In this document: positions 1,089 through 12,377 of the stretch, one piece after another | Layout: each line of letters opens with the position of its first letter | Position numbering within the stretch: the stretch's first letter is position 1 | Source of the DNA: Euryarchaeota archaeon UBA106 | GTDB lineage: Archaea > Thermoplasmatota > Poseidoniia > Poseidoniales > Thalassarchaeaceae | DNA length: 64,000 nucleotides | Assembly: GCA_002502365.1 (NCBI GenBank) | Contig: DAOJ01000065.1 | Span: 7,547 to 71,546, forward strand | Direction: 5' to 3' | Notes under the pieces: generated by a model | Databases searched by the model: none | Told to the model about the DNA's origin: nothing | Seen by the model: only the letters and a program-made list of their open reading frames with translations | Translations under genes and position numbers: made by a program

Positions 1089-1162
1089 GGGCCTGTAGCT
1101 TAGTCAGGTAGAGCGCCGGGCTTTTAACCCGGTGGCCGGGGGTTCGAATCCCTCCAGGCCCG
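1089..1162 (+). tRNA. tRNA-Lys (anticodon UUU)
   Basis: Hand-folded cloverleaf. Acceptor GGGCCTG/CAGGCCC 7 bp. D stem GCTT/GAGC. Anticodon stem CCGGG/CCCGG with loop CTTTTAA (anticodon TTT). T stem GGGGG/CCCTC (one GU) with loop TTCGAAT. Discriminator G. CCA not encoded. Confidence 0.85.
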
Positions 1163-1164
1163 CC

Positions 1165-1210: not shown

Positions 1211-1798
1211 ATGGCAGTGAAGAGTTCTACCAAAAAGCGTCTGATTGAGTTGGGCATCGATGCAGAGCATGCTCACAAACTCGCTGACGACGCTAATATG
1301 GATGCAATCAAGAGAATGACAGTTGAAGAGGTATCCGAAAAGACAGGAGTTGCAATGAGCGATGCAACCCTAGAAAATATAATGACAATCATCAGAGAGC
1401 ACAATACCTCCCGAAGAAGAAGTCGCTCAGGCCGAATTACCATTTCAAGAAAAGCATTAGAACTTGACGACATACCCCAAGGCGATGATAGATTTAATGT
1501 CCTAAACCACATTTTAGTTCCTCATCATGAATTAGTCCCCGAAGAAGAAGAGGCAGCAGTACTGTCACCATGGGGCCTAGAAGTTTCTGACAACGACGGT
1601 GGAACCAGAATAGCTAAGGAATTATTACCTAAGATTTTGATTACAGATCCCGCAGTTCAAGCCATTAAGGAAAAGGTCGAGTCAGAACTCGAAGATTTGC
1701 CTGCAGGATGGCTTGCAAATAGGGTTGTACGGGTAATCCGCTACAGCAGAGTGGCTGGTTCTAGTACAGCGTTCAGACTAATCGTGGAGAGTGCCTGA
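1211..1798 (+). CDS. rpoH: DNA-directed RNA polymerase subunit H (Rpo5/Rpb5 C-domain homolog) with ~110-aa N-terminal HhH-like extension
   Basis: C-terminal ~85 aa (HILVPHHELVPEEE...AVQAIKEKVE...VVRVIRYSRVAGSSTAFRLIV) matches archaeal RpoH (HILVPKHEIVP...GDVVRVIRKS...AYRLV). No Met at the RpoH-domain boundary, so the N-terminal module is fused. Immediately upstream of rpoB, as in archaeal RNAP operons. Confidence 0.85.
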   Translation: MAVKSSTKKRLIELGIDAEHAHKLADDANMDAIKRMTVEEVSEKTGVAMSDATLENIMTIIREHNTSRRRSRSGRITISRKALELDDIPQGDDRFNVLNHILVPHHELVPEEEEAAVLSPWGLEVSDNDGGTRIAKELLPKILITDPAVQAIKEKVESELEDLPAGWLANRVVRVIRYSRVAGSSTAFRLIVESA

Positions 1799-1810
1799 GG
1801 GGTTGATAAT

Positions 1811-4800
1811 ATGAAGGAAATCGTAGAAAGTTATTTTCAGCAAAGAAGTCTAGTAAATCACCAACTTGCTTCATACAACGACTGTATTCCCTCAACAGAT
1901 GGTAAGCTAAGTCGCATGGAAAAAATCGTTCGCAACATCCGTATTGGAACTGATGATCCAGTAGAGGATGACGATGGGGGTATAATCAAACTCGACGTTC
2001 TGGACAAAGAGATAGTAATCAGAATGAAGAATATTCATCTTGGTCGTCCTACTATTCGCGAAGCCAATGGGTCGGAACACCCTGGTACTCCTTTGGAATG
2101 CAGGCTTCGAAAACTGACTTATTACTCACCTGTTCATCTCGATTTCCAGATTATTAGGGACGATAAACCTACACCTGATATAGAAGAAAGAGTTCACATA
2201 GGAAACCTTCCTATTATGGTACGTTCAGCACAATGCAACCTTCACGCTAACCATATCTCACATCTGTGTGGAGAAGCGGATAGAAAATTAAATCCACATA
2301 CCTCAATCGAAGATGCAGAACGGTTGACTGAATTACTTCGAAGAGCCGGAGAAGATCCACTTGATCCAGGTGGCTATTTTATCATCAATGGAACCGAGCG
2401 GGTACTAATTTCAATGGAAGATCTCGCACCTAACCGAGTTACTGTTGAAAAGAACAAAAAGTACGCTCATGAAACAGAAGTCGCTAAGATTTTCTCTCAA
2501 AAAGATGGAGTTAGAAAGCCATTGAACATCGAAAAGCGCCGTGATGGTATGCTAATGGTAAAAATCCCAAGTGCAGGTACCACTCCAATTCCAGTTGTAT
2601 TGTTGATGCGTTCTCTTGGAATGGAAAATGACAAAGAAATTTTCACTGCAATTGCAGGTCCTGCAGAGGCAATGAAGTATACAGTTGCAAACCTCAACGA
2701 TGTCAAGGACAACGAAGAATACAATGTCGAAACCTCTGAGGAAGCACTTCAATGGTTAGAAAAGAAATTTGCCGCCGGTCAGCAAAAAGAATACCGTGAG
2801 GCTAGAATTCAGAATTTGTTGGATAAGGAATTACTGCCTCACCTAGGTTCTGGCCCCGAACATCGTGAAAAGAAGGCTATTTTCCTAGGAAGAATCGTCC
2901 GCCAAGTTTTGGAAATGGCGATCACAGACAAGGATCCTAACGACAAGGACCACTACGCGAATAAGCGCGTTCGTCTAGCTGGGGATTTAGTCGAGGACCT
3001 ATTCCGTGTCAGCCTACAACAACTTGCTAGAGACCTGAAATATCAATTAGAGAGACATCACAATAGGAAGCGTGAATTGAGAATTAACGCGTGCCTACGT
3101 CCTGATGTTTTAACTCAGAAGATAATGCATGCTTTGGCGACTGGAAATTGGGTCGGCGGACGTAGTGGAGTAAGTCAGTTGCTTGACCGAACGACATATC
3201 TTGCCGCTCTGTCACACATGAGAAGAGTCACCAGCCCATTGGTTCGAAGTCAACCACATTTCGAGGCCCGTGACTTACACCCAACTCAATGGGGTAGATT
3301 ATGCCCTAACGAAACTCCCGAGGGTCAAAATTGTGGGCTGGTGAAAAACGCCTCCCAAATGATTGACGTATCGGAGGAAGTTCACGAAAATGATGTCAAG
3401 CAACTTCTTAGCGAAGCCGGTGTAGATTCTTCACCAGCAGGCTGGGCTGAAGGATTCAGAGTTCACGTCAATGGTGACATTTTCGGACTTCACAAGAATG
3501 CTGCTAGATTGGTAAACCAATTCAAGCGCCGCCGCCGGCAAGGACGCATTCGTCCTGAGGTTAGTATCCGATACGACGGGGCGAACCGAGATGTGTTCAT
3601 CAATACTGATAGAGGCCGAATATTGAGGCCTTTACTTGTCCTAGAGGATGGCGATTTAGTATTATCAAAAGAGCATATGGACTTGATTAAATCCGGCGAA
3701 TGGACATTCGCAGATTTGGTCTCCAATGGAATTGTTGAATGGGTAGATGCGGAAGAAGAAGAAGACCTCCTAATAGCCCCACGTCCATTCGATTTGCCAA
3801 TGGTTTCTCCTAAGCATGGTCGGCCAATTAATCCAGCCGCAGTCGAGTGGGTAAACTTAGGCGATTCCCAAATCAAGAAGGCTAAGCTTCGTGTAGAAGT
3901 AAAGATGCCAAATGGGGATGTTGAAGTCGAGAATTTCAGCGTTCCTCTGAACTATTTCCAAGAGGAATTAGAAAGCATAATGCGCAAGCAAAAGCGGCAA
4001 AATACAGTTCTTGCATATACCCACGTAGAAATTGATCCACAATTGATTCTAGGTGTCTGCGCTTCATTGGTTCCTTATCCTGAACACAATTCCACTCCGA
4101 GAGTCACTGGTGGGACAGCGATGGTAAAACAAAGCCTTGGACTCCCTAGTGCGAACTACCGACTCAGGCCAGACACTCGAATGCATGTTATGCACTATCC
4201 ACAACAATCGATAGTAGGAACACGTTCCATGAAAACCACAAACTTCGCTCAAAGGCCAGGTGGTCAAAACTTCGTAGTTGCAATTTTGAGCCACCACGGT
4301 TACAACATGCAAGACGCAGTTGTAATGAATAGAGCAGCTGTCGAGAGGTCTTTAGGTCGCTCATCTTTCATTAGAACATACAATGCTGAGAACAAACAAT
4401 TCCCGGGTGGTCAAAAAGAACAAATCGAGATTCCAGGTACTGGCCTTGACGAGGTCAAGGGTCTAAAATCATGGGAAAGTTACGTTCACCTAGAAAGAGA
4501 TGGATTGCCAACACCAGAAACCCATCTATCTAGCGAGGGTGCCGAGACTGGGGTTTTGGTAGGAAAGACAAGCCCCCCTCGATTCCTCGAGGAATCTCAC
4601 GGCCACTTCCTACAAGCCCAAGAGAGAAGAGAATCATCAATGATGGTACGTAATGGGGAATCTGGTTGGGTCGACAACGTATATGTTACTGAATCCTTAG
4701 ATTCAGGTCTACTTTGCAGAATCACTCTCAGAACCGAAAAGGTTCCTGAACTTGGAGATAAATTTGCAAGTCGTCACGGCCAAAAGGGAATCATTGGCAG

Positions 4801-5497
4801 ATTAGTCGATGAAAAAGACATGCCGTTTACTGAAGATGGTATAGTACCTGACCTTATCATCAACCCACACGCTATCCCATCAAGAATGACCGTTGCTCAC
4901 GTTCTTGAAATGATAGGTGGAAAGGTTGGTTCGATGGAAGGTCGCCAAATTGACGGAACCGCCTTCAGTGGTGAGAAGGAAGAATCACTTCGTTCTGGAC
5001 TTCTTCGCAACGGATTCGCTCACACCGGAAGGGAAGGGATGATTAGCGGCGAAACCGGAGAAGCTTTCGATGCAGAAATATTCACAGGAGTAATCTTCTA
5101 TCAAAGGCTGCATCACTTGGTAAGTAGTAAGCTGCACGCTAGAAGTCGTGGTCGAGTACAAATTTTGACTCGCCAGCCTACAGAAGGGCGTGCTCGCCAA
5201 GGAGGTCTGCGATTTGGTGAAATGGAGAGAGACTGTCTGATTGCCCACGGTGCATCCATGGTAATCAAGGATAGGCTACTTGATGAGTCCGATGGATGGC
5301 CTCTAATGGTGTGTAACAACAGTGGTTGCGGTCACATCGCCTATTATGACTGGAAGAGGAGAACGCCAGTGTGCCCGGTTTGTGGCGACAGAGCAGATGT
5401 TCACTCCGTCCAGACCTCATATGCATTCAAACTACTCTTGGATGAGATGAAAAGTCTTGGAGTGGCTATGCGCCTAGAACTGGAGGATAGAAGATGA
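1811..5497 (+). CDS. rpoB: DNA-directed RNA polymerase subunit B (unsplit B, Rpb2 homolog)
   Basis: 1228-aa ORF with hallmark Rpb2 segments (GYFIINGTERVLIS, NGDIFGLHKN, FRFGEMERDC, C-terminal Zn ribbon CNNSGCGHIAYYD...CPVCG). Single ORF, not split into B'/B''. Confidence 0.95.
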   Translation: MKEIVESYFQQRSLVNHQLASYNDCIPSTDGKLSRMEKIVRNIRIGTDDPVEDDDGGIIKLDVLDKEIVIRMKNIHLGRPTIREANGSEHPGTPLECRLRKLTYYSPVHLDFQIIRDDKPTPDIEERVHIGNLPIMVRSAQCNLHANHISHLCGEADRKLNPHTSIEDAERLTELLRRAGEDPLDPGGYFIINGTERVLISMEDLAPNRVTVEKNKKYAHETEVAKIFSQKDGVRKPLNIEKRRDGMLMVKIPSAGTTPIPVVLLMRSLGMENDKEIFTAIAGPAEAMKYTVANLNDVKDNEEYNVETSEEALQWLEKKFAAGQQKEYREARIQNLLDKELLPHLGSGPEHREKKAIFLGRIVRQVLEMAITDKDPNDKDHYANKRVRLAGDLVEDLFRVSLQQLARDLKYQLERHHNRKRELRINACLRPDVLTQKIMHALATGNWVGGRSGVSQLLDRTTYLAALSHMRRVTSPLVRSQPHFEARDLHPTQWGRLCPNETPEGQNCGLVKNASQMIDVSEEVHENDVKQLLSEAGVDSSPAGWAEGFRVHVNGDIFGLHKNAARLVNQFKRRRRQGRIRPEVSIRYDGANRDVFINTDRGRILRPLLVLEDGDLVLSKEHMDLIKSGEWTFADLVSNGIVEWVDAEEEEDLLIAPRPFDLPMVSPKHGRPINPAAVEWVNLGDSQIKKAKLRVEVKMPNGDVEVENFSVPLNYFQEELESIMRKQKRQNTVLAYTHVEIDPQLILGVCASLVPYPEHNSTPRVTGGTAMVKQSLGLPSANYRLRPDTRMHVMHYPQQSIVGTRSMKTTNFAQRPGGQNFVVAILSHHGYNMQDAVVMNRAAVERSLGRSSFIRTYNAENKQFPGGQKEQIEIPGTGLDEVKGLKSWESYVHLERDGLPTPETHLSSEGAETGVLVGKTSPPRFLEESHGHFLQAQERRESSMMVRNGESGWVDNVYVTESLDSGLLCRITLRTEKVPELGDKFASRHGQKGIIGRLVDEKDMPFTEDGIVPDLIINPHAIPSRMTVAHVLEMIGGKVGSMEGRQIDGTAFSGEKEESLRSGLLRNGFAHTGREGMISGETGEAFDAEIFTGVIFYQRLHHLVSSKLHARSRGRVQILTRQPTEGRARQGGLRFGEMERDCLIAHGASMVIKDRLLDESDGWPLMVCNNSGCGHIAYYDWKRRTPVCPVCGDRADVHSVQTSYAFKLLLDEMKSLGVAMRLELEDRR

Positions 5498-8400
5498 GTG
5501 CCCGCGGAGTTGCAAAAATCCCAAAGAGGATTGATTCGATTAAATTTAGTCTGATGGATCCGAATGAAATACGAAAGATGTCAGCAGTTGAAGTAAAGAC
5601 AGCTGATACCTACAAGGATGATGGTCACGCATTCAAACAGGGTCTTATGGATCCCAAAATGGGTGTTATAGACCCCGGTATTCGATGTGAAACCTGTGGA
5701 AACAAACACGATGAATGTCCTAGCCACTTTGGACACATCGCTCTTGAGTTGCCTGTAATGCACATAGGTTTCACTCCTTTAATCAAAACCACATTGAAGT
5801 GTACATGCAATGAATGTAGCCAAATTTTGCTACACAGTGCTGCTGACACACATCCGTTAGATCCGGAAAAGTCTGAACAGGATTACTACCGAGATCGTGT
5901 TCATGATGTGATGAGAAAACATGGTGTTGGTTCGACAGAATTCAAGAAGATTATCAAAGAAATAGAGAAGGAATGCTCTAGTGCTAAGCGTGCAATTTGT
6001 ATGCACTGTGGAGCGGAGCAAGGAAAGATTATTCTCGATAAACCGACAACCTTCAAAGAGAAGAAAGCCGACAAAGGAGAACATAAACTCAATGCACGTG
6101 ATATTCGTGAATGGCTTGAGAAAATACCTGATGAACATCTGATTTTCTTAGGTATGGACAGTCATTCCAGTAGGCCTGAATGGTCCATAATGAAAGTTCT
6201 TCCAGTCCCTCCAATAACCGTTCGTCCATCAATCACACTAGACAGTGGAGATAGGTCCGAAGACGATTTAACTCACAAACTCGTTGACGTTTTGAGAATT
6301 AACCAACGACTAAGAGAAAATCGAGATGCAGGTGCGCCTCAATTAATTGTAGAGGATTTGTGGGAGTTGTTACAATATCACGTAACTACATACTTTGACA
6401 ATCAAACAAGTGGTATCCCACCCGCTAGGCATCGTTCCGGAAGGCCACTAAAGACTCTCTCGCAACGATTGAAGGGTAAAGAAGGTAGATTCAGGAGTAA
6501 TCTCTCAGGAAAGAGGGTTAACTTCTGTGCTAGAACCGTAATTAGCCCAGATCCAAATTTGGGGATTAACGAAGTTGGAGTGCCCGTGCGAACCGCAAAG
6601 GAACTCACGGTACCAATTCGTTCAACCAGTAGGAATCGTGAACAACTGAGAAGAATGATTCTTCGCGGGCCTGATGTACACCCAGGTGTTAACTACATCA
6701 TCCGCGGTGATAGTTTCCGTGTCAGAATTACAGACAGAACAAAATACATCTGGGCAGGTTTCCGATGCCTCAATCCAGACTGTCATTGTGGCAGTGATGA
6801 TGAACCATATCCAGGTTACAGACCTGACCTAAACACAGTATTACCGTCCCCTAATTTCCTTCCTGGTCTTGAGTTGAAAAAACAAATGAAAAGGAATGAA
6901 TTGGGAGATTTGGAAGACATTTGGTCTGTTGATTTAGATGCCACCCTTGCGAACCTACGTGGTGAAGATGAGAACGGACGCCCACTACCTGAAGATGATC
7001 CAAGAGCAGTAATTCATCACCGCTGGGTTTGGGAACAAAATAATCCTGATGAATATCTTCCTGAACACCTCGAAGTCAACTGCCCACACTGCGGTAGCCC
7101 GGCAATTGAGGATGAGTACGGTGAAGTTTACCGGACTGAAGTAGAAGACCGTCTTTCACCTTACGACAGAGAGGGCAATCCCCGTCCTGGTGTTATTGTA
7201 GAGAGACACCTAATTGATGGAGATGTTGCAATATTCAACAGACAACCATCACTACACCGAATGTCAATGCTTGTTCACGAAGTCAGAGTTATGCCAGGAA
7301 AGACATTCCGCTTTAACTTAGCAGATTGTACTCCATACAACGCTGACTTCGACGGAGATGAAATGAACCTACACGTAATTCAATCAGAGGAAGCAAGAGC
7401 TGAAGCTAAAATCTTGATGAGAGTTCAGGAACATATCATAACTCCTAGATATGGAGGCGCTGTTATTGGAGGAATCCATGACCATATTTCTGGTGCCTAT
7501 CTACTGACCCATGGTGAAAGAGTAATTCCAAAGGAATTAGCAATGGAAGTACTCGGTTCTGTTGGTTGGGATGGTGATATGCCTGAGGAGACTACTACGA
7601 AAGATGGAATAGTTGGGTACAAAGGAGCAGACTTACTAAGTTTAATTGTACCAGCAGGCTTCAAACTGAATTATACTAGCAGAAGCGGTGATGATGTCAA
7701 CGTAACATCGACAGGAATTGTCAGTGGAACTATCGACAAGCGTGGAATCGGTGCTGAAGATGGTCGCCTTCTTGATGCGGTAGTTCAAACTCACGGAACA
7801 GATAGGGGTGCAGAATTCCTAAATCGAATGACAAAAATGACAATTGCGATTTGCACAGCCTTAGGATTTACCACTGGTATCGATGATGAGGACTTACCAT
7901 CTGGAGCAATCAAAGAAATTTCTGAAATCAACGCTCGTGCCAGCGATGCAGTCGATGCTGAATTAGTAAAGTTCGGTAAAGATGGACGAAGATATGAAAC
8001 TAGACCTGGTAGAACCCCTTCAGAGACACTTGAGGAAAACATTCTCCAGATTCTAGATTCAGCCAAGGCCGAATCAGGAAACGTTGCAAAATCATACCTT
8101 GGAGAAGACAACTCTGCTGTAATCATGGCTACTTCAGGTGCTCGTGGTTCTATGGATAACCTAGCTATGATGGCAGGTTCTATTGGACAACCTAAAGTTC
8201 GTGGTAAGAGGTTAGAAAGAGGATACCAAGACAGGGTGTTGTCTCACTTCCCCCGCAACGTAAAGGGCGCTGAGGAGAAAGGTTTTGTTTCTTCTTCATT
8301 CAAACAAGGTCTACAACCTACAGAGTTCTTCATGCTATCAGTATCGGGAAGAGAATCTTTGGTTGATACTGCAGTTCGTACCTCAAAGTCTGGTTACATG

Positions 8401-8592
8401 CAGCGACGATTGATTAACGCAATGGATGATCTGAAAGTATCCGAAGATGAAAATGGATCGGTAAGAAATACTGCCGACAGAATTATTCAATTCGAATATG
8501 GAGAGGATGGAATCGATCCGGCTAGAAGCAGAAAAGGACTTCCGTTTGACATTACGAAGGTTCTAGATGATGCATTGGGAGGTGATGAGTGA
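5494..8592 (+). CDS. rpoA1: DNA-directed RNA polymerase subunit A' (Rpb1 N-terminal part)
   Basis: ATGA overlap with the rpoB stop. N-terminal Zn sites [17 protein letters not shown] and CTCNECSQ...CMHCG. Active-site region [10 protein letters not shown] ... [10 protein letters not shown] present. 1032 aa, including a ~130-aa Cys-containing insertion (see findings). Confidence 0.95.
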
Positions 8593-10169
8593 TGGTTGTT
8601 AAGAGTGCAACAAAGAAGAAACTCATGGATCTTGGTATTGCTGAGGAATACGCTCACCGACTAGCTGATGATCGAAAATGGGATAATGTCAAGGTTCTTA
8701 CCGCAGGAGAAATAGCACAAATTTGTGCTACTGATTCTGGTATGGCACAAAACATCTCTGAAGTAATTCAAGGTTCAACTAAAGCAGCCCAAAAGGAGCA
8801 GAAAGCAGAGAAGACTTTGATTCGACGCCGTGTTACTTCCCGCAGAAGAAAGAAGAGTTTACTTCCTTTACAAGAATATGATTCTGAGGATAAAATGAAA
8901 CAAATCCACCGAGATTTGGATATTGAAAACCCAATGTTCACAAGCCTTTCTGATGCTGCAGTAAAAGAAAATATCAGAATTTCACCCAAGACAATTAATG
9001 ACTTAGTCAATGGTTTACTTTCTAGAGGTCAGAAAAAACTGACACCTGCTCAAGCGCGCAAGGTTGTTACTTGCGCAGCAGCAGATATGAAAATGTCTCG
9101 AGCAGACCCACATGAAGCGGTTGGAATTACCACAGCTCAATCGATTGGAGAACCGGGTACTCAAATGACTATGCGTACTTTCCACTATGCTGGTGTAGCA
9201 ACCGTCAACGTTACACAAGGTCTTCCTCGCGTTATCGAAATCGTTGATGCAAGAAAGGTTCCTAAGACGCCTACAATGCTCGTCTACCTTAATGAAAATG
9301 ATTCCAAGGGCAAACCTTTGCGAAGTAACGAGAAGAAGGTTCAGGCCATTGCTGCCGCAATAGAAACCACCACCACCAGAGATATTGCTTCGATAGATGT
9401 TGATGTTGCGCAAAGGCATCTTAATTTGGAATTAAATACCAAAAATATTCGATTGAAGAAAATGACTGGTGCAGAAGTCAGAGACAAATTACAAAGAGCT
9501 CTTCGACTATACATTCAGGCTGACGACGAAGATAAGCCTAAGGTTCTAAAGGTCATTCCAGGTGTGACAAAAGAGGATGATTTAGCCCAATTAGCAAATG
9601 ACCCACCTACATACACTGCTCTATTGCAATTAGAAGATAAAATCAAGAAATTACGTTTGAAAGGCCTACCCGATATTGTTAGAGCGAATGTTCAGGGTCC
9701 AAACAAGGACACTGGCGAATACTACATTGCAACCATTGGTTCTAACCTATCCAAGGTCAGTATGTTCGATGGCGTTGACAGAGGTCGCACTTACACCAAT
9801 AACATCAATGAAATTTATGGATATCTTGGTGTAGAAGCTGCCAGACAAGCCATAGTTAATGAGATGAAAGATACACTCGAGGGCGCAGGTCTAGAGGTAG
9901 ATACTAGACACTTAATTACAGTCGCAGATGTAATGACAAGCGAAGGTGAGGTTCGAGCAATTGGCCGTCATGGTGTTAGTGGAACTAAACACAGTATCTT
10001 GGCACGATCTGCATTCGAAGTGTCAGTTAACCATCTATTGCGAGCCGGTATTATTGGAGAAAGAGACCATCTACGTGGTGTAACTGAGAATATCATAGTT
10101 GGTCAACCTGTTGCCTTAGGGACAGGTAGCGTAGATCTATTCTACATACCTGAAGAGGCAGGTGCTTGA
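8589..10169 (+). CDS. rpoA2: DNA-directed RNA polymerase subunit A'' (Rpb1 C-terminal part) with ~125-aa N-terminal HhH-like extension
   Basis: ATGA overlap with the rpoA' stop. Canonical A'' core ([28 protein letters not shown] ... trigger-loop region). N-terminal 60 aa are paralogous to the RpoH N-terminus (VKSxTKKxLxxLGIxxExAHxLADD). Confidence 0.9.
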
Positions 10170-10182
10170 AGGAGGAATAGAA

Positions 10183-10479
10183 ATGGACTTAGCAAGACAA
10201 CTCAAACAAGGAATTAGTACTGGAACCGTACTATTCGGACAACGTCAAACAACTAGTGCTTGTAACAAAGGAGATGCTAGATTGGTTCTGGTTGCGGCGA
10301 ATTGTCCCGAGGACTATATTTCCCTCTTGACGACCAGCCATCCCGATATTACAGTACACAGAGTCTCAATGGTCAATCGGCAGTTAGGCGCTGCTTGTGC
10401 AAAACCCTTCCCAGTGAGCGCATTATGTGTTGTAGACCCAGGTCAATCTGATTTACTAACACTGAACGGAAACATTTGA
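10183..10479 (+). CDS. rpl30e: 50S ribosomal protein L30e
   Basis: MDLARQLKQGISTGTVLFGQRQT...ARLVLVAANCPEDY fits the L30e family. GGAGG Shine-Dalgarno 8 nt upstream of the ATG at 10183 (track ORF starts earlier at 10162). Conserved position after rpoA''. Confidence 0.85.
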   Translation: MDLARQLKQGISTGTVLFGQRQTTSACNKGDARLVLVAANCPEDYISLLTTSHPDITVHRVSMVNRQLGAACAKPFPVSALCVVDPGQSDLLTLNGNI

Positions 10480-10564: not shown

Positions 10565-11518
10565 ATGGATGATGCCATCGGGGATTTACTCAAACTCCGT
10601 GGCGTCGAACTATCCAAGGCTGAGAGTGTAACCGAATCATTTGGATTCCGTTGCTTAGGCATAGCTGAAAAAATACCCGAATTACAGTCTGATAACTCCT
10701 CTTCTGTCTACGTTTGGCATATTTCCAAAGGTATTCTTCCAGTTAGTGTAGCAGAAGCTGAGAGATGGTTAGTGGATGTGCCTAAAGGTGCACATTGGGT
10801 ATTGAGTGAAAGGGAGTTTCAAGAGCAAGCGAGTAAACTATTGTATTCAGAGTTAAAAATTGAACTTTGGAGTCCTAAAAAACTCAGTCAATGGATTGGT
10901 GAGGCGGTCTTGAGTGGTGAACTCACAGCCCATGCAGCTCTTTTTCCTTCTACAGAAATAACCCCTGAAGATGAAGAAAAATCTGCTTCCGCAGAAAACC
11001 TCATTGTTTTACAAGCCAAAATCAATCTTGACGAATGGAGTATTCAAAGAGGGATTGAATATCTTGATGCGAAACCTATTCTTTTACAAGCAAGGATTTG
11101 GAATATCGTTGGAGCCTTAGTTAGCCCTGATGGGGATAGGGAAGAGGGTGAATGGAGAGTTCTAGAAGACCCTTGGGCCGATCGTTTAGAGATGTATAAT
11201 TCAGAGAATGGTCTACAAAATCCACTAAACCTTAGAATAATCAATTCGCAAGAAAACAAACTTCTTTCAGAATCAGACCTAAGAGTGATGCTAGTTGGAA
11301 TTCTGGAAACACGAAAGCAAAGAAAACAACAAACCTCAGAGGGGACATCCGTTACAAGCACAATGTTAGAAAGATGGTCATTCGATTCAGAAGGTGCTCA
11401 TCTAGAATGTTTACCCGCAGCCATACCGGGCTGGATTTTAGATTATGATGGAAGAAAGGAGATACTCCATTCAAGGAATGGAAGAACATATGATCTCAGT
11501 TTCTTTGAAGCGCCATAA
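10565..11518 (+). CDS. Hypothetical protein (317 aa), occupying the position where nusA normally follows rpl30e
   Basis: Long ORF in an AT-rich genome. No recognisable NusA KH motifs or other domain signatures by eye. Confidence 0.5.
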   Translation: MDDAIGDLLKLRGVELSKAESVTESFGFRCLGIAEKIPELQSDNSSSVYVWHISKGILPVSVAEAERWLVDVPKGAHWVLSEREFQEQASKLLYSELKIELWSPKKLSQWIGEAVLSGELTAHAALFPSTEITPEDEEKSASAENLIVLQAKINLDEWSIQRGIEYLDAKPILLQARIWNIVGALVSPDGDREEGEWRVLEDPWADRLEMYNSENGLQNPLNLRIINSQENKLLSESDLRVMLVGILETRKQRKQQTSEGTSVTSTMLERWSFDSEGAHLECLPAAIPGWILDYDGRKEILHSRNGRTYDLSFFEAP

Positions 11519-12377
11519 TTTCGTCTGTTGAAAGGGTGTCTCCAGACATCAATCTGGTCATTAGGTCTGCAACTTCCACTTGTTCTTCTTCTTCAGTGGA
11601 ACCTCCTTCTCTAGCTTCAATAGCCTTTAGCAAATCCTGCATAGAATGTATGCAACGAAGAGAAACGATGTATCTGCCGTGTAGTGAATCTGCCTCCCTC
11701 TTAGCTCTTGTTACCCCCGACTGGGCAGAATTTGCCTTTTCTCGAAGTCTATCGACTTCTTCAGATAACTCCGCCATCAGGTCATGGGCTTCTTGTGCAC
11801 CCACAACTGCTCTTTTCACCTTCTTGTGTGCATCTTCTTGTTTCTTTTCCGCATCCCGAAGTTGAATTTTTAATTCTCTAATCCCACCATCTGATTTTTT
11901 TTCCTTTGCTTCCCTTAATTCTTGGTGTAATTTCTTCATTTTGGATACAAATTCACGTTCCTTTTTTCCAAGGAATCGACCTTCGTTATACTGTCTTTCC
12001 AATCTTTCTATTTCAGTTCTGATTCTACCTGGAGATCTTGTTCTGTCCAATTTCTGTTCTCTTTCATCTTTAGCACCGTTTTCAGCGATTTTTTCTCTGA
12101 AAACGGTTCTAATTTCTCTCAGAGTTTCAGTTCTTTCCGCTCTCAAGTCCTTTAACTCGCGAACGGTTTGATTTGCTTCATCTCTAAGTGACTTTTGATT
12201 TTGAACTTCGGTAATCAATTCCTTTACTTGACGATTTAATTCATTTCTCTCATCTAATAATTTGCGGACCTTAGAATTCCATTGGTCTCTCTCTTCTCGA
12301 TTGTAGGATATTTGTTCTTGTACATCATCACAAAGAGGTTGTAAAATGCCGCGAATTTCCTCGCTTTCCATCTTCAT
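11496..12377 (-). CDS. Coiled-coil protein, paralog C (archaeal COG1340-like uncharacterized coiled-coil family, tentative)
   Basis: 293 aa, heptad-rich and charged (NELNRQVKELITEVQNQKSLRDEANQTVRELKDLRAE...). ATG start. C-terminal L..L(M/L)SG.TL motif shared with paralogs B and D. Confidence 0.7.
   Translation of the reverse strand: MKMESEEIRGILQPLCDDVQEQISYNREERDQWNSKVRKLLDERNELNRQVKELITEVQNQKSLRDEANQTVRELKDLRAERTETLREIRTVFREKIAENGAKDEREQKLDRTRSPGRIRTEIERLERQYNEGRFLGKKEREFVSKMKKLHQELREAKEKKSDGGIRELKIQLRDAEKKQEDAHKKVKRAVVGAQEAHDLMAELSEEVDRLREKANSAQSGVTRAKREADSLHGRYIVSLRCIHSMQDLLKAIEAREGGSTEEEEQVEVADLMTRLMSGDTLSTDEIMALQRN

What the first reader, a model, noticed from the sequence alone, without database searches (positions are those of the whole stretch)
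1211..8950. Paralogous HhH-like N-terminal modules fused to both RpoH and RpoA''
The first ~60 aa of the rpoH ORF (MAVKSSTKKRLIELGIDAEHAHKLADDANMDAIKRMTVEEVSEKTG...) and of the rpoA'' ORF ([49 protein letters not shown]...) are clearly homologous, about 45% identical. Each is followed by an Arg-rich linker (RRRSRSG / [11 protein letters not shown]) before the canonical subunit begins. Canonical archaeal RpoH is ~80 aa and lacks the N-terminal 'jaw' domain of eukaryotic Rpb5. Canonical A'' starts near the region equivalent to the Rpb1 jaw/cleft. In Pol II the Rpb5 jaw and Rpb1 jaw jointly grip downstream DNA. Two copies of a helix-hairpin-helix-like (L..LGI....A..LADD) nucleic-acid-binding module appended at exactly these two subunits suggests a lineage-specific, convergently evolved downstream-DNA clamp on the archaeal RNAP.
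Basis: partly seen in the sequence, partly recalled or inferred. Interest (0 to 1): 0.75.

Follow-up and report, generated by a model that had tools for sequence, protein, structure and literature searches.

The report
Shared helical handle on archaeal RNA polymerase
In the abundant but uncultured marine archaea of Marine Group II, two RNA polymerase subunits that sit next to the incoming DNA each carry an extra, related, strongly conserved small helical domain on a positively charged leash, and the same domain also heads many unrelated, probably viral, proteins.

Summary
rpoH (1211-1798) and rpoA'' (true ATG at 8592, ends 10169) each begin with a homologous module of about 62-64 aa. The two are 41% identical over 63 aa and 57% over the first 35 (E 2e-13). 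There are only two copies in the window. Each module is followed by a basic linker and then the canonical subunit.

The fusions are not artefacts. All 127 rpoH and 134 rpoA'' genes in 168 independent loci are in frame, in both Marine Group II families. The first half of the module is more conserved than the subunit cores.

The "downstream DNA clamp" reading is only partly supported:
- The module is net acidic.
- Its second hairpin is not conserved.
- It also heads about 20 or more unrelated protein families. These include a TFB-cyclin protein without a zinc ribbon, a defence-type ATPase, and ORFans on virus-like contigs.

My best reading is a pair of leashed adaptor domains, comparable to the bacterial alpha-CTD, on the polymerase lower jaw. 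Mobile elements appear to share or mimic their ligand. Neither DNA binding nor protein docking has been shown. I found no earlier description of it.

The parts
1211..1402 (+). RpoH N-terminal module (aa 1-64): five-helix SAM-like/(HhH)2 domain, H-type (…LADDANMDAIKRM…)
1403..1492 (+). RpoH basic linker (aa 65-94: NTSRRRSRSGRITISRKALELDDIPQGDDR)
   Evidence: Net charge is +3 here, with an orthologue mean of +3.5. It is nearly invariant in close relatives. AF2 confidence is below 50, so it is predicted flexible on its own.
1493..1798 (+). Canonical RpoH/Rpo5 assembly domain (aa 95-195) plus stop codon
   Evidence: Pfam RNA_pol_Rpb5_C, E 2e-13. NCBIfam subunit H. Aligns to 1hmj and 4qiw chain H from their residue 3-6.
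8592..8777 (+). RpoA'' N-terminal module (aa 1-62 counted from ATG 8592), A''-type (…[13 protein letters not shown]…)
   Evidence: Mean pairwise identity among 119 orthologues is 0.76, rising to 0.89 for aa 1-35. This is higher than the catalytic core at 0.79.
8778..8906 (+). RpoA'' basic linker (aa 63-105, includes [13 protein letters not shown])
   Evidence: Net charge is +8, with an orthologue mean of +8.4. The sequence is variable (identity 0.46) but always basic.
8907..10169 (+). Canonical RpoA''/Rpo1C (trigger loop, jaw, cleft) plus stop codon
   Evidence: Pfam Rpb1 domain 5. TIGR02389. Aligns to Rpo1C of 2waq, 7ok0 and 4qiw from their residues 14-36.
1811..8592 (+). Context: unsplit rpoB (1811-5497) and rpoA' (5494-8592), lying between the two module-bearing genes in one operon

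Best explanation
These are genuine accessory domains of the RNA polymerase, found across the order Poseidoniales (Marine Group II). A duplicated five-helix domain of about 62 aa, of the SAM-like/(HhH)2 fold class, is attached through a positively charged linker of 30-45 aa to the N-termini of subunits H (Rpo5) and A'' (Rpo1C). These are the subunits that build the lower jaw next to downstream DNA.

I propose that they work like the bacterial alpha-CTD: small helical 'handles' on leashes that give the enzyme additional, specific contacts. The basic leash, and possibly hairpin 1, would touch nucleic acid. The strongly conserved, mixed-charge first half of the domain (KSxTKKK…E..AH.LADD…D) would recognise one specific conserved ligand. 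That ligand could be a protein, the sister module, or a defined nucleic-acid feature. Other proteins that carry the same N-terminal handle, many apparently encoded by viruses or mobile elements, and one a TFB cyclin domain without a zinc ribbon, would use it to reach the same ligand and so reach the transcription machinery.

Shown:
- the modules are paralogous;
- the fusions are in frame in all loci;
- the modules are under purifying selection;
- the fold class;
- the charge pattern;
- the presence of the module on unrelated proteins.

Inferred:
- the position of the modules relative to DNA;
- the flexibility of the leash;
- the existence and identity of a common ligand.
For: Fusion and conservation:
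- 578 or more matching stretches in GTDB species representatives.
- 127 of 127 rpoH and 134 of 134 rpoA'' genes in frame across 168 loci.
- More than 1000 clusters of the 195-aa fused RpoH, from NCBI, JGI, Tara, ENA and Logan.
- Present in both Thalassarchaeaceae and Poseidoniaceae.
- aa 1-35 are 83-89% identical among orthologues, versus 68-79% for the subunit cores.

Fold:
- AF2 pLDDT 79-84 with five helices.
- Foldseek: FANCM probability 0.99, and the RadA N-terminal domain at 20-25% identity.

Pointers to a specific ligand:
- The module is net acidic (-2 and -1.5) and the leashes are basic (+3.5 and +8.4).
- An exhaustive HMMER search finds only 205 representatives. About 50 credible ones have unrelated C-termini, in about 20-25 families.
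- Those carriers keep aa 1-30 but not the second hairpin.
- Third codon positions are saturated, so the conservation acts on the protein.

Carriers:
- P0178: module plus TFIIB cyclin repeat (Pfam E 1e-5, NCBIfam E 5e-14).
- P0201: defence-type ATPase.
- P0212: lies beside Mom-like, ERCC4, PCNA and RNR genes on a 27.5-kb virus-like contig.

Literature: H and A'' form the lower jaw and contact downstream DNA (PMC2847245). Other lineages fill the empty groove beside Rpo5 with Rpo13 or the Rpb5 jaw (PMC2675907).
Against: - There is no direct evidence for any ligand.
- No multimer or DNA-complex model could be run.
- The viral origin of the other carriers is shown for only one or two contigs. The module was not found in IMG/VR or in GenBank phages.
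- The RpoH linker is almost invariant. This fits a fixed docking on the enzyme better than a free leash.
- The geometry of the A'' N-terminus relative to Rpo5 and DNA was not computed.
Confidence: 0.4

Rival explanations
1. Downstream-DNA clamp. The two (HhH)2 domains and their Arg/Lys-rich linkers bind the duplex DNA entering the enzyme without sequence preference. They would replace the missing Rpb5 jaw or Rpo13 and raise open-complex stability or processivity. The other carriers would simply be DNA-binding proteins that reuse a convenient domain.
For: - The (HhH)2-type fold has DNA-bound relatives: Topo V, FANCM-FAAP24, XPF and Hef.
- The linkers are basic.
- The attachment points are the two lower-jaw subunits that cross-link to DNA at +10 to +20 (PMC2847245).
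- Rpo13, with its Lys-rich tail near DNA at +8, is a precedent (PMC2675907).
- The co-occurring domains in other carriers are DNA-related: TFB cyclin, C2H2 zinc fingers and an ABC/OLD-type ATPase.
Against: - The module is net acidic, with conserved E18, D26, D27 and D31 next to hairpin 1.
- There is no match to any Pfam HhH model, even at E up to 10.
- Hairpin 2 is not conserved, and G15 is replaced by Q or L in some A'' orthologues.
- Identity of 60-75% between polymerase and non-polymerase copies over aa 1-34 exceeds what backbone-mediated, non-specific DNA binding should require.
Confidence: 0.3
2. Cis-acting structural brace. The modules dock permanently onto their own enzyme and have no external ligand. 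[quoted passage not shown] The modules would stabilise or tune lower-jaw and clamp movements, or aid assembly.
For: - The RpoH linker is nearly invariant, which suggests a fixed path on the surface.
- The module is acidic and the groove is basic (PMC2675907).
- The enzyme has a further lineage-specific 146-aa Cys4 insertion in the A' dock region, which suggests a co-evolved, remodelled surface.
Against: - It does not explain why the same module, with the same conserved face, sits at the N-terminus of about 20 or more unrelated proteins.
- It does not explain why two paralogous copies are kept.
- AF2 predicts no contact between the module and the RpoH core, although that model is poor outside the module.
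Confidence: 0.15
3. Artefact or non-functional. The extensions would come from gene-calling or assembly errors, or from untranslated upstream sequence, with the real subunits starting at internal codons.
For: A word-indexed protein search with the module returned only short ORFs under 120 aa, many with frameshifted tails.
Against: - Those short ORFs are fragments from short or error-prone contigs.
- In GTDB genomes and long metagenome contigs, every copy is in frame with its subunit.
- More than 1000 clusters of full-length 195-aa RpoH exist.
- There is no homopolymer run in the linker.
- The codon-position pattern and the high conservation show selection on the protein.
Confidence: 0.02

Closest known systems
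Bacterial RNA polymerase alpha-subunit C-terminal domain (alpha-CTD)
   Same: A small all-helical domain with HhH-like elements, tethered to the polymerase by a flexible linker. There are two copies per enzyme. It makes accessory contacts, with DNA and with regulators, rather than catalytic ones.
   Different: - There is no sequence relationship.
- Here the two copies sit on two different subunits (H and A''), at the N-terminus.
- They are on the downstream or lower-jaw side rather than upstream.
- Function is untested here.
Eukaryotic Rpb5 N-terminal 'jaw' domain
   Same: An extra domain N-terminal to the conserved Rpb5/RpoH assembly domain, on the lower jaw next to downstream DNA. It is also a docking site for regulators.
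   Different: - The fold and origin are unrelated. There is no Pfam Rpb5_N match, and the module is predicted all-helical at about 62 aa versus about 130 aa.
- Here it is separated from the core by a basic linker.
- Here it is duplicated onto A''.
Rpo13 of Sulfolobales/Desulfurococcales
   Same: A lineage-specific small helical element with a basic tail. It occupies the groove beside Rpo5 and lies near downstream DNA (PMC2675907).
   Different: - Rpo13 is a separate subunit with a helix-turn-helix, not a fused domain.
- It is found in Crenarchaeota only.
- It has no paralogue on A''.
- It is not known to be shared with viral proteins.
NusA acidic repeats AR1/AR2, and (HhH)2 domains of XPF-ERCC1, Hef, FANCM-FAAP24 and RadA/Rad51 N-terminal domains
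   Different: - Only 10-25% identity, with no profile match.
- The hairpin consensus is only partly kept.
- Always at the extreme N-terminus, with a conserved [10 protein letters not shown] start.
SAM (sterile alpha motif) domains
   Different: - No sequence match to SAM families.
- SAM domains are essentially eukaryotic signalling modules.
- Oligomerisation is untested here.

Membership tests
(HhH)2 domain (RuvA domain 2-like superfamily) | Two helix-hairpin-helix motifs joined by a connector helix, giving a compact five-helix unit | tested here: met
(HhH)2 domain (RuvA domain 2-like superfamily) | Hairpin consensus h-G-h-G (LPGIG-like) in both motifs, and a sequence match to HhH profiles | tested here: not met
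   Hairpin 1 is L-G-[IV]-x-E, with G15 replaced by Q or L in some orthologues. Hairpin 2 is not conserved. No Pfam HhH hit at E up to 10. No PDB profile hit.
(HhH)2 domain (RuvA domain 2-like superfamily) | Non-sequence-specific binding of duplex DNA through hairpin backbone amides | not testable with these tools
   This needs EMSA or a structure. The net acidic charge of the module argues for caution.
SAM domain | Five-helix bundle of about 65-70 aa | tested here: met
SAM domain | Sequence membership (Pfam SAM_1/SAM_2) and head-to-tail pairing through the ML and EH surfaces | tested here: inconclusive
   There is no Pfam hit.
Rpb5 N-terminal jaw domain (Pfam RNA_pol_Rpb5_N) | Homologous alpha/beta domain of about 130 aa preceding the Rpb5 C-terminal domain | tested here: not met
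   Only Rpb5_C is detected in RpoH. The extension is a 64-aa all-helical module plus a linker. It is analogous in position only.
RNA polymerase subunit H / Rpo5 | Rpb5 C-terminal assembly domain, encoded at the head of the rpoH-rpoB-rpoA'-rpoA'' operon | tested here: met
   Pfam PF01191, E 2e-13. NCBIfam NF007129. Aligns to 1hmj and 4qiw_H. Operon order.
RNA polymerase subunit A'' / Rpo1C | Rpb1 domain 5 with trigger loop and jaw, encoded directly after rpoA' | tested here: met
   Pfam PF04998, E 1.9e-48. TIGR02389, E 1e-123. PDB Rpo1C, E 7e-80.
Bacterial alpha-CTD | C-terminal domain of the alpha subunit that binds UP elements and activators | tested here: not met

The most novel reading that the evidence does not exclude
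The module is a homotypic docking handle. The H-type and A''-type copies pair with each other or with like modules. Viruses and mobile elements of Marine Group II archaea put the same handle on their own effector proteins, including a TFB-like cyclin domain without a zinc ribbon, to plug them directly onto the host RNA polymerase lower jaw. This would redirect or block host transcription. It would be a modular system for hijacking the polymerase, with no described counterpart in archaea.
Probability: 0.2. Interest if true: 0.85.

Novelty: new variant of a known kind. Interest (0 to 1): 0.6.

Why it matters
Textbook and primary literature state that archaeal RpoH consists only of the Rpb5 C-terminal domain, with no N-terminal extension (PMC3906176). 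Here a whole order of globally abundant, uncultured ocean archaea breaks that rule. It does so twice with the same domain, on the two subunits that form the lower jaw.

This adds a fourth independent solution to decorating that site, after the Rpb5 jaw, Rpo13 and the Thermus beta' insertion. It is also the first case I know of a paralogous tethered domain pair on an archaeal polymerase.

The module defines an undescribed domain family. That family links the host polymerase to dozens of ORFans on virus-like contigs. This gives a concrete, testable entry point into how viruses of uncultured Marine Group II archaea deal with host transcription.

Tried and rejected
1. Sequence-family assignment of the module failed. 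I tried Pfam at E up to 10, NCBIfam, a PDB profile search and BFVD. None gave a usable hit.

2. A nucleotide-level explanation was rejected. The idea was that the conserved 5' end acts as an attachment site or RNA element shared with mobile elements. Identity is 0.7-0.9 at codon positions 1 and 2 but only 0.38-0.5 at position 3.

3. Assembly error or programmed frameshift in the linker was rejected. The first protein search returned only short, frameshifted ORFs, which suggested this. However, all copies on good contigs are in frame, and the linker has no slippery run.

4. Carriers were not found in known virus collections. There was nothing in IMG/VR with two pattern sets and nothing in GenBank phages. 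The viral origin therefore rests on gene content of contigs L170 and L083 only.

5. The metagenome scan aimed at non-polymerase carriers returned only rpoA'' loci.

6. The AF2 model of full-length RpoH was poor outside the module (pLDDT 54). It says nothing reliable about contacts between module and core.

7. The afdb50 fold library was unavailable.

8. No paper describing these extensions was found.


Full report
**What is in the window**

The region holds a classical archaeal RNA polymerase operon on the + strand:
- rpoH, 1211-1798, 195 aa
- an unsplit rpoB, 1811-5497, 1228 aa
- rpoA', 5494-8592, 1032 aa
- rpoA'', listed from GTG 8589, ending at 10169
- rpl30e, 10162-10479

A tRNA-Lys(UUU) lies 46 nt upstream of rpoH.

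The rpoA' stop and an ATG overlap as TGATG at 8590-8594. The A'' protein therefore most likely starts [10 protein letters not shown] at 8592, mirroring MAVKSSTKKR of RpoH.

Pfam finds only the Rpb5 C-terminal domain in RpoH (aa 95-191) and Rpb1 domain 5 in A''. Alignments to solved archaeal polymerases give these equivalences:
- RpoH aa 97 corresponds to residue 3 of the 78-aa M. jannaschii subunit H.
- A'' aa 121 corresponds to residue 14 of S. shibatae Rpo1C.

About 94 and about 107 N-terminal residues are therefore extra.

The two extensions are homologous:
- BLASTP gives E 2e-13.
- tblastn of either module against all six frames of the 64-kb window finds only the other one, at E about 1e-11 with 41% identity over 63 aa. 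The next hits have E > 0.28.
- Over the first 35 residues, 20 are identical.

Each module is followed by a basic stretch, with net charge +3 in RpoH and +8 in A''.

**It is not an artefact**

A word-indexed search with the module profile returned only ORFs under 120 aa, many with tails that look frameshifted. That raised the possibility of separate genes or assembly errors. Genomic loci settle the matter:
- The module patterns hit at least 578 places in GTDB species representatives.
- In the 80 best loci, plus 80 metagenome loci, every one of 127 rpoH and 134 rpoA'' genes carries module and canonical part in one reading frame. No third copy lies nearby.
- The full 195-aa RpoH has more than 1000 clusters at 90% identity, from NCBI, JGI, Tara, ENA and Logan. 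Sources annotate it simply as subunit H.
- Named sources include Thalassarchaeaceae (MGIIb) and Poseidoniaceae (MGIIa). The feature is therefore order-wide.

The window itself is closest to MGIIb-O1 genomes (L001 and L002).

**Selection**

Among 108 RpoH and 119 A'' orthologues, mean pairwise identity of module residues 1-35 is 0.83 and 0.89. That is higher than the canonical cores, at 0.68 and 0.79. The second half of the module is less conserved, at 0.56-0.60. The RpoH linker is nearly invariant among close relatives. The A'' linker varies in sequence but stays strongly basic.

**Fold**

With a 73-sequence alignment, AlphaFold2 gives a five-helix domain. Mean pLDDT is 79, with helices at 6-14, 18-27, 30-34, 38-45 and 52-67. 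In a full-length RpoH model the module is again confident (about 84), while residues 66-110 fall below 50.

| Search | Matches |
|---|---|
| Foldseek | FANCM, probability 0.99; SARM1 SAM; RadA N-terminal domain at 20-25% identity; all with weak E-values |

No Pfam, NCBIfam or PDB sequence profile matches the module. It is therefore an undescribed family within the SAM-like/(HhH)2 fold class.

**What argues for and against a DNA clamp**

For:
- The fold class fits.
- The linkers are basic.
- The literature says that H, A' and A'' form the archaeal lower jaw, and that H cross-links to DNA from +10 to +20 (PMC2847245).
- Archaeal Rpo5 lacks the roughly 130-aa Rpb5 jaw. This leaves a positively charged groove that Sulfolobales fill with Rpo13 and eukaryotes fill partly with the Rpb5 jaw (PMC2675907).

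Against:
- The globular module is net acidic, at -2 and -1.5 on average.
- Its most conserved exposed residues include E18, H22, D26, D27 and D31, alongside the N-terminal K4, K8 and K9.
- The hairpin-1 glycine is replaced by Q or L in some A'' orthologues.
- Hairpin 2 is not conserved.

**The unexpected part**

I ran an exhaustive HMMER scan of 1.84 billion representative proteins with the module profile. It found only 205 hits. Besides RpoH, RpoA'' and their fragments, about 50 credible representatives in roughly 20-25 families carry the module at their extreme N-terminus, in front of unrelated sequence. Examples:
- P0175, a 1292-aa ORFan.
- Families of 316-337, 284-295, 210-225 and 160-190 aa.
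- P0201: C2H2 zinc fingers, the module, and an ABC/OLD-type ATPase that matches the defence proteins NsnB, AriA and GajA.
- P0178: the module, a basic linker and one TFIIB cyclin repeat, with no zinc ribbon (Pfam E 1e-5, above the gathering score; NCBIfam TFIIB E 5e-14).
- P0171, a natural tandem of two modules.

These carriers keep residues 1-30 (M-V-V-K-S-A-T-K-K-x-L-x-D-x-G…A-H-x-L-A-x-D-R) at 60-90% frequency. After residue 34 they diverge.

Against the window's rpoA'' 5' end, codon positions 1 and 2 are 0.7-0.9 identical and position 3 only 0.38-0.5. The conservation is therefore on the protein, not on an attachment site or RNA element.

**Where the carriers live**

Their contigs are gene-dense, largely co-directional and almost free of annotated families. 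Two have informative gene content:
- On a 27.5-kb contig (L170), the carrier P0212 lies beside a Mom-like DNA-modification gene (PHROG E 6e-30), an ERCC4 nuclease, a PCNA and a ribonucleotide reductase. This is a virus-like gene set.
- L083 carries a phage-type thymidylate synthase hit.

The module was not found in IMG/VR or in GenBank phages. A viral origin is therefore likely for some carriers and unproven for most. The magrovirus paper mentions an 'RNA polymerase A' gene in its unresolved group D (PMC5434244). That may be worth re-examining in this light.

**Interpretation**

A dedicated downstream clamp does not explain why the same face of the same domain is kept on so many unrelated proteins. 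Non-specific DNA binding should not need that much sequence conservation. I therefore favour a broader model.

In this model, the modules are leashed adaptor domains on the lower jaw, analogous to the bacterial alpha-CTD. Their conserved first half recognises one specific ligand, which could be a protein, the sister module, or a defined nucleic-acid feature. The basic leashes can touch nucleic acid. Other proteins, including those of mobile elements, use the same handle to reach that ligand.

My estimates are about 0.4 for this model, 0.3 for the pure DNA clamp, 0.15 for a purely cis structural brace, and 0.02 for an artefact. The most novel reading still open is homotypic docking that viruses exploit to attach effectors to the host polymerase. 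I put that at about 0.2.

**What was not possible**

I could not run multimer or DNA-complex predictions. I could not measure distances in solved polymerase structures. I could not consult proteomics. No paper describing these extensions was found. One paper explicitly states that archaeal RpoH has no N-terminal extension (PMC3906176).

Noticed in passing
window 6751-7188 (rpoA' aa 420-565): rpoA' carries an insertion of about 146 aa between the positions equivalent to P. furiosus Rpo1N residues 401 and 409. This is the dock region, where the TFB zinc ribbon binds. The insertion has a split Cys4 pattern (C-x-N-x-x-C … C-P-H-C). It is present in all 127 related loci with coverage, at 50-99% identity. 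It is a third lineage-specific decoration of this polymerase.
   Followed up: partly
proteins P0175, P0188, P0191, P0212, P0215, P0221 and others; loci L081-L088, L169-L175: The polymerase module also heads about 20-25 unrelated protein families, mostly ORFans on small, gene-dense contigs. One 27.5-kb contig (L170) has Mom-like, ERCC4, PCNA and ribonucleotide reductase genes next to the carrier, so it looks viral.
   Followed up: partly
L087 314-895 (P0178); L173 291-908 (P0420): A protein of 193-205 aa made of the module, a basic linker and a single TFIIB/TFB cyclin repeat. It has no zinc ribbon and no B-reader. Only two clusters are known, both on ORFan contigs.
   Followed up: partly
L086 1012-3567 (P0201): An 851-aa protein with C2H2 zinc fingers, the module (aa 93-162) and an ABC/OLD-type ATPase that matches the defence proteins NsnB, AriA and GajA. 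Three ORFans follow it.
   Followed up: partly
window 1089-1164: tRNA-Lys(UUU) lies only 46 nt upstream of the rpoH start codon, with a GC-rich inverted repeat in between. No obvious AT-rich promoter lies in the gap, so rpoH may be co-transcribed with the tRNA or use a very short leader.
   Followed up: no
window 1493-1795 (RpoH aa 95-195): The canonical RpoH domain has two internal insertions of about 11 and 13 aa relative to M. jannaschii subunit H. This explains its weak scores against the subunit H models.
   Followed up: no
window 10565-11518: The gene after rpl30e is a 317-aa ORF with no Pfam match, where many Euryarchaeota have nusA. A convergent 293-aa coiled-coil-like ORF (11496-12377, - strand) follows it.
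   Followed up: no
protein P0171 (186 aa): A natural protein with two tandem copies of the module. It hints that the modules can work in pairs.
   Followed up: no
9 hits (e.g. P0009, P0019, P0029): Many database ORFs containing the module are truncated by frameshifts just after the Arg-rich linker. The window has no slippery run there, and good assemblies are in frame, so these look like sequencing or assembly errors. Their frequency at that spot was not quantified.
   Followed up: partly
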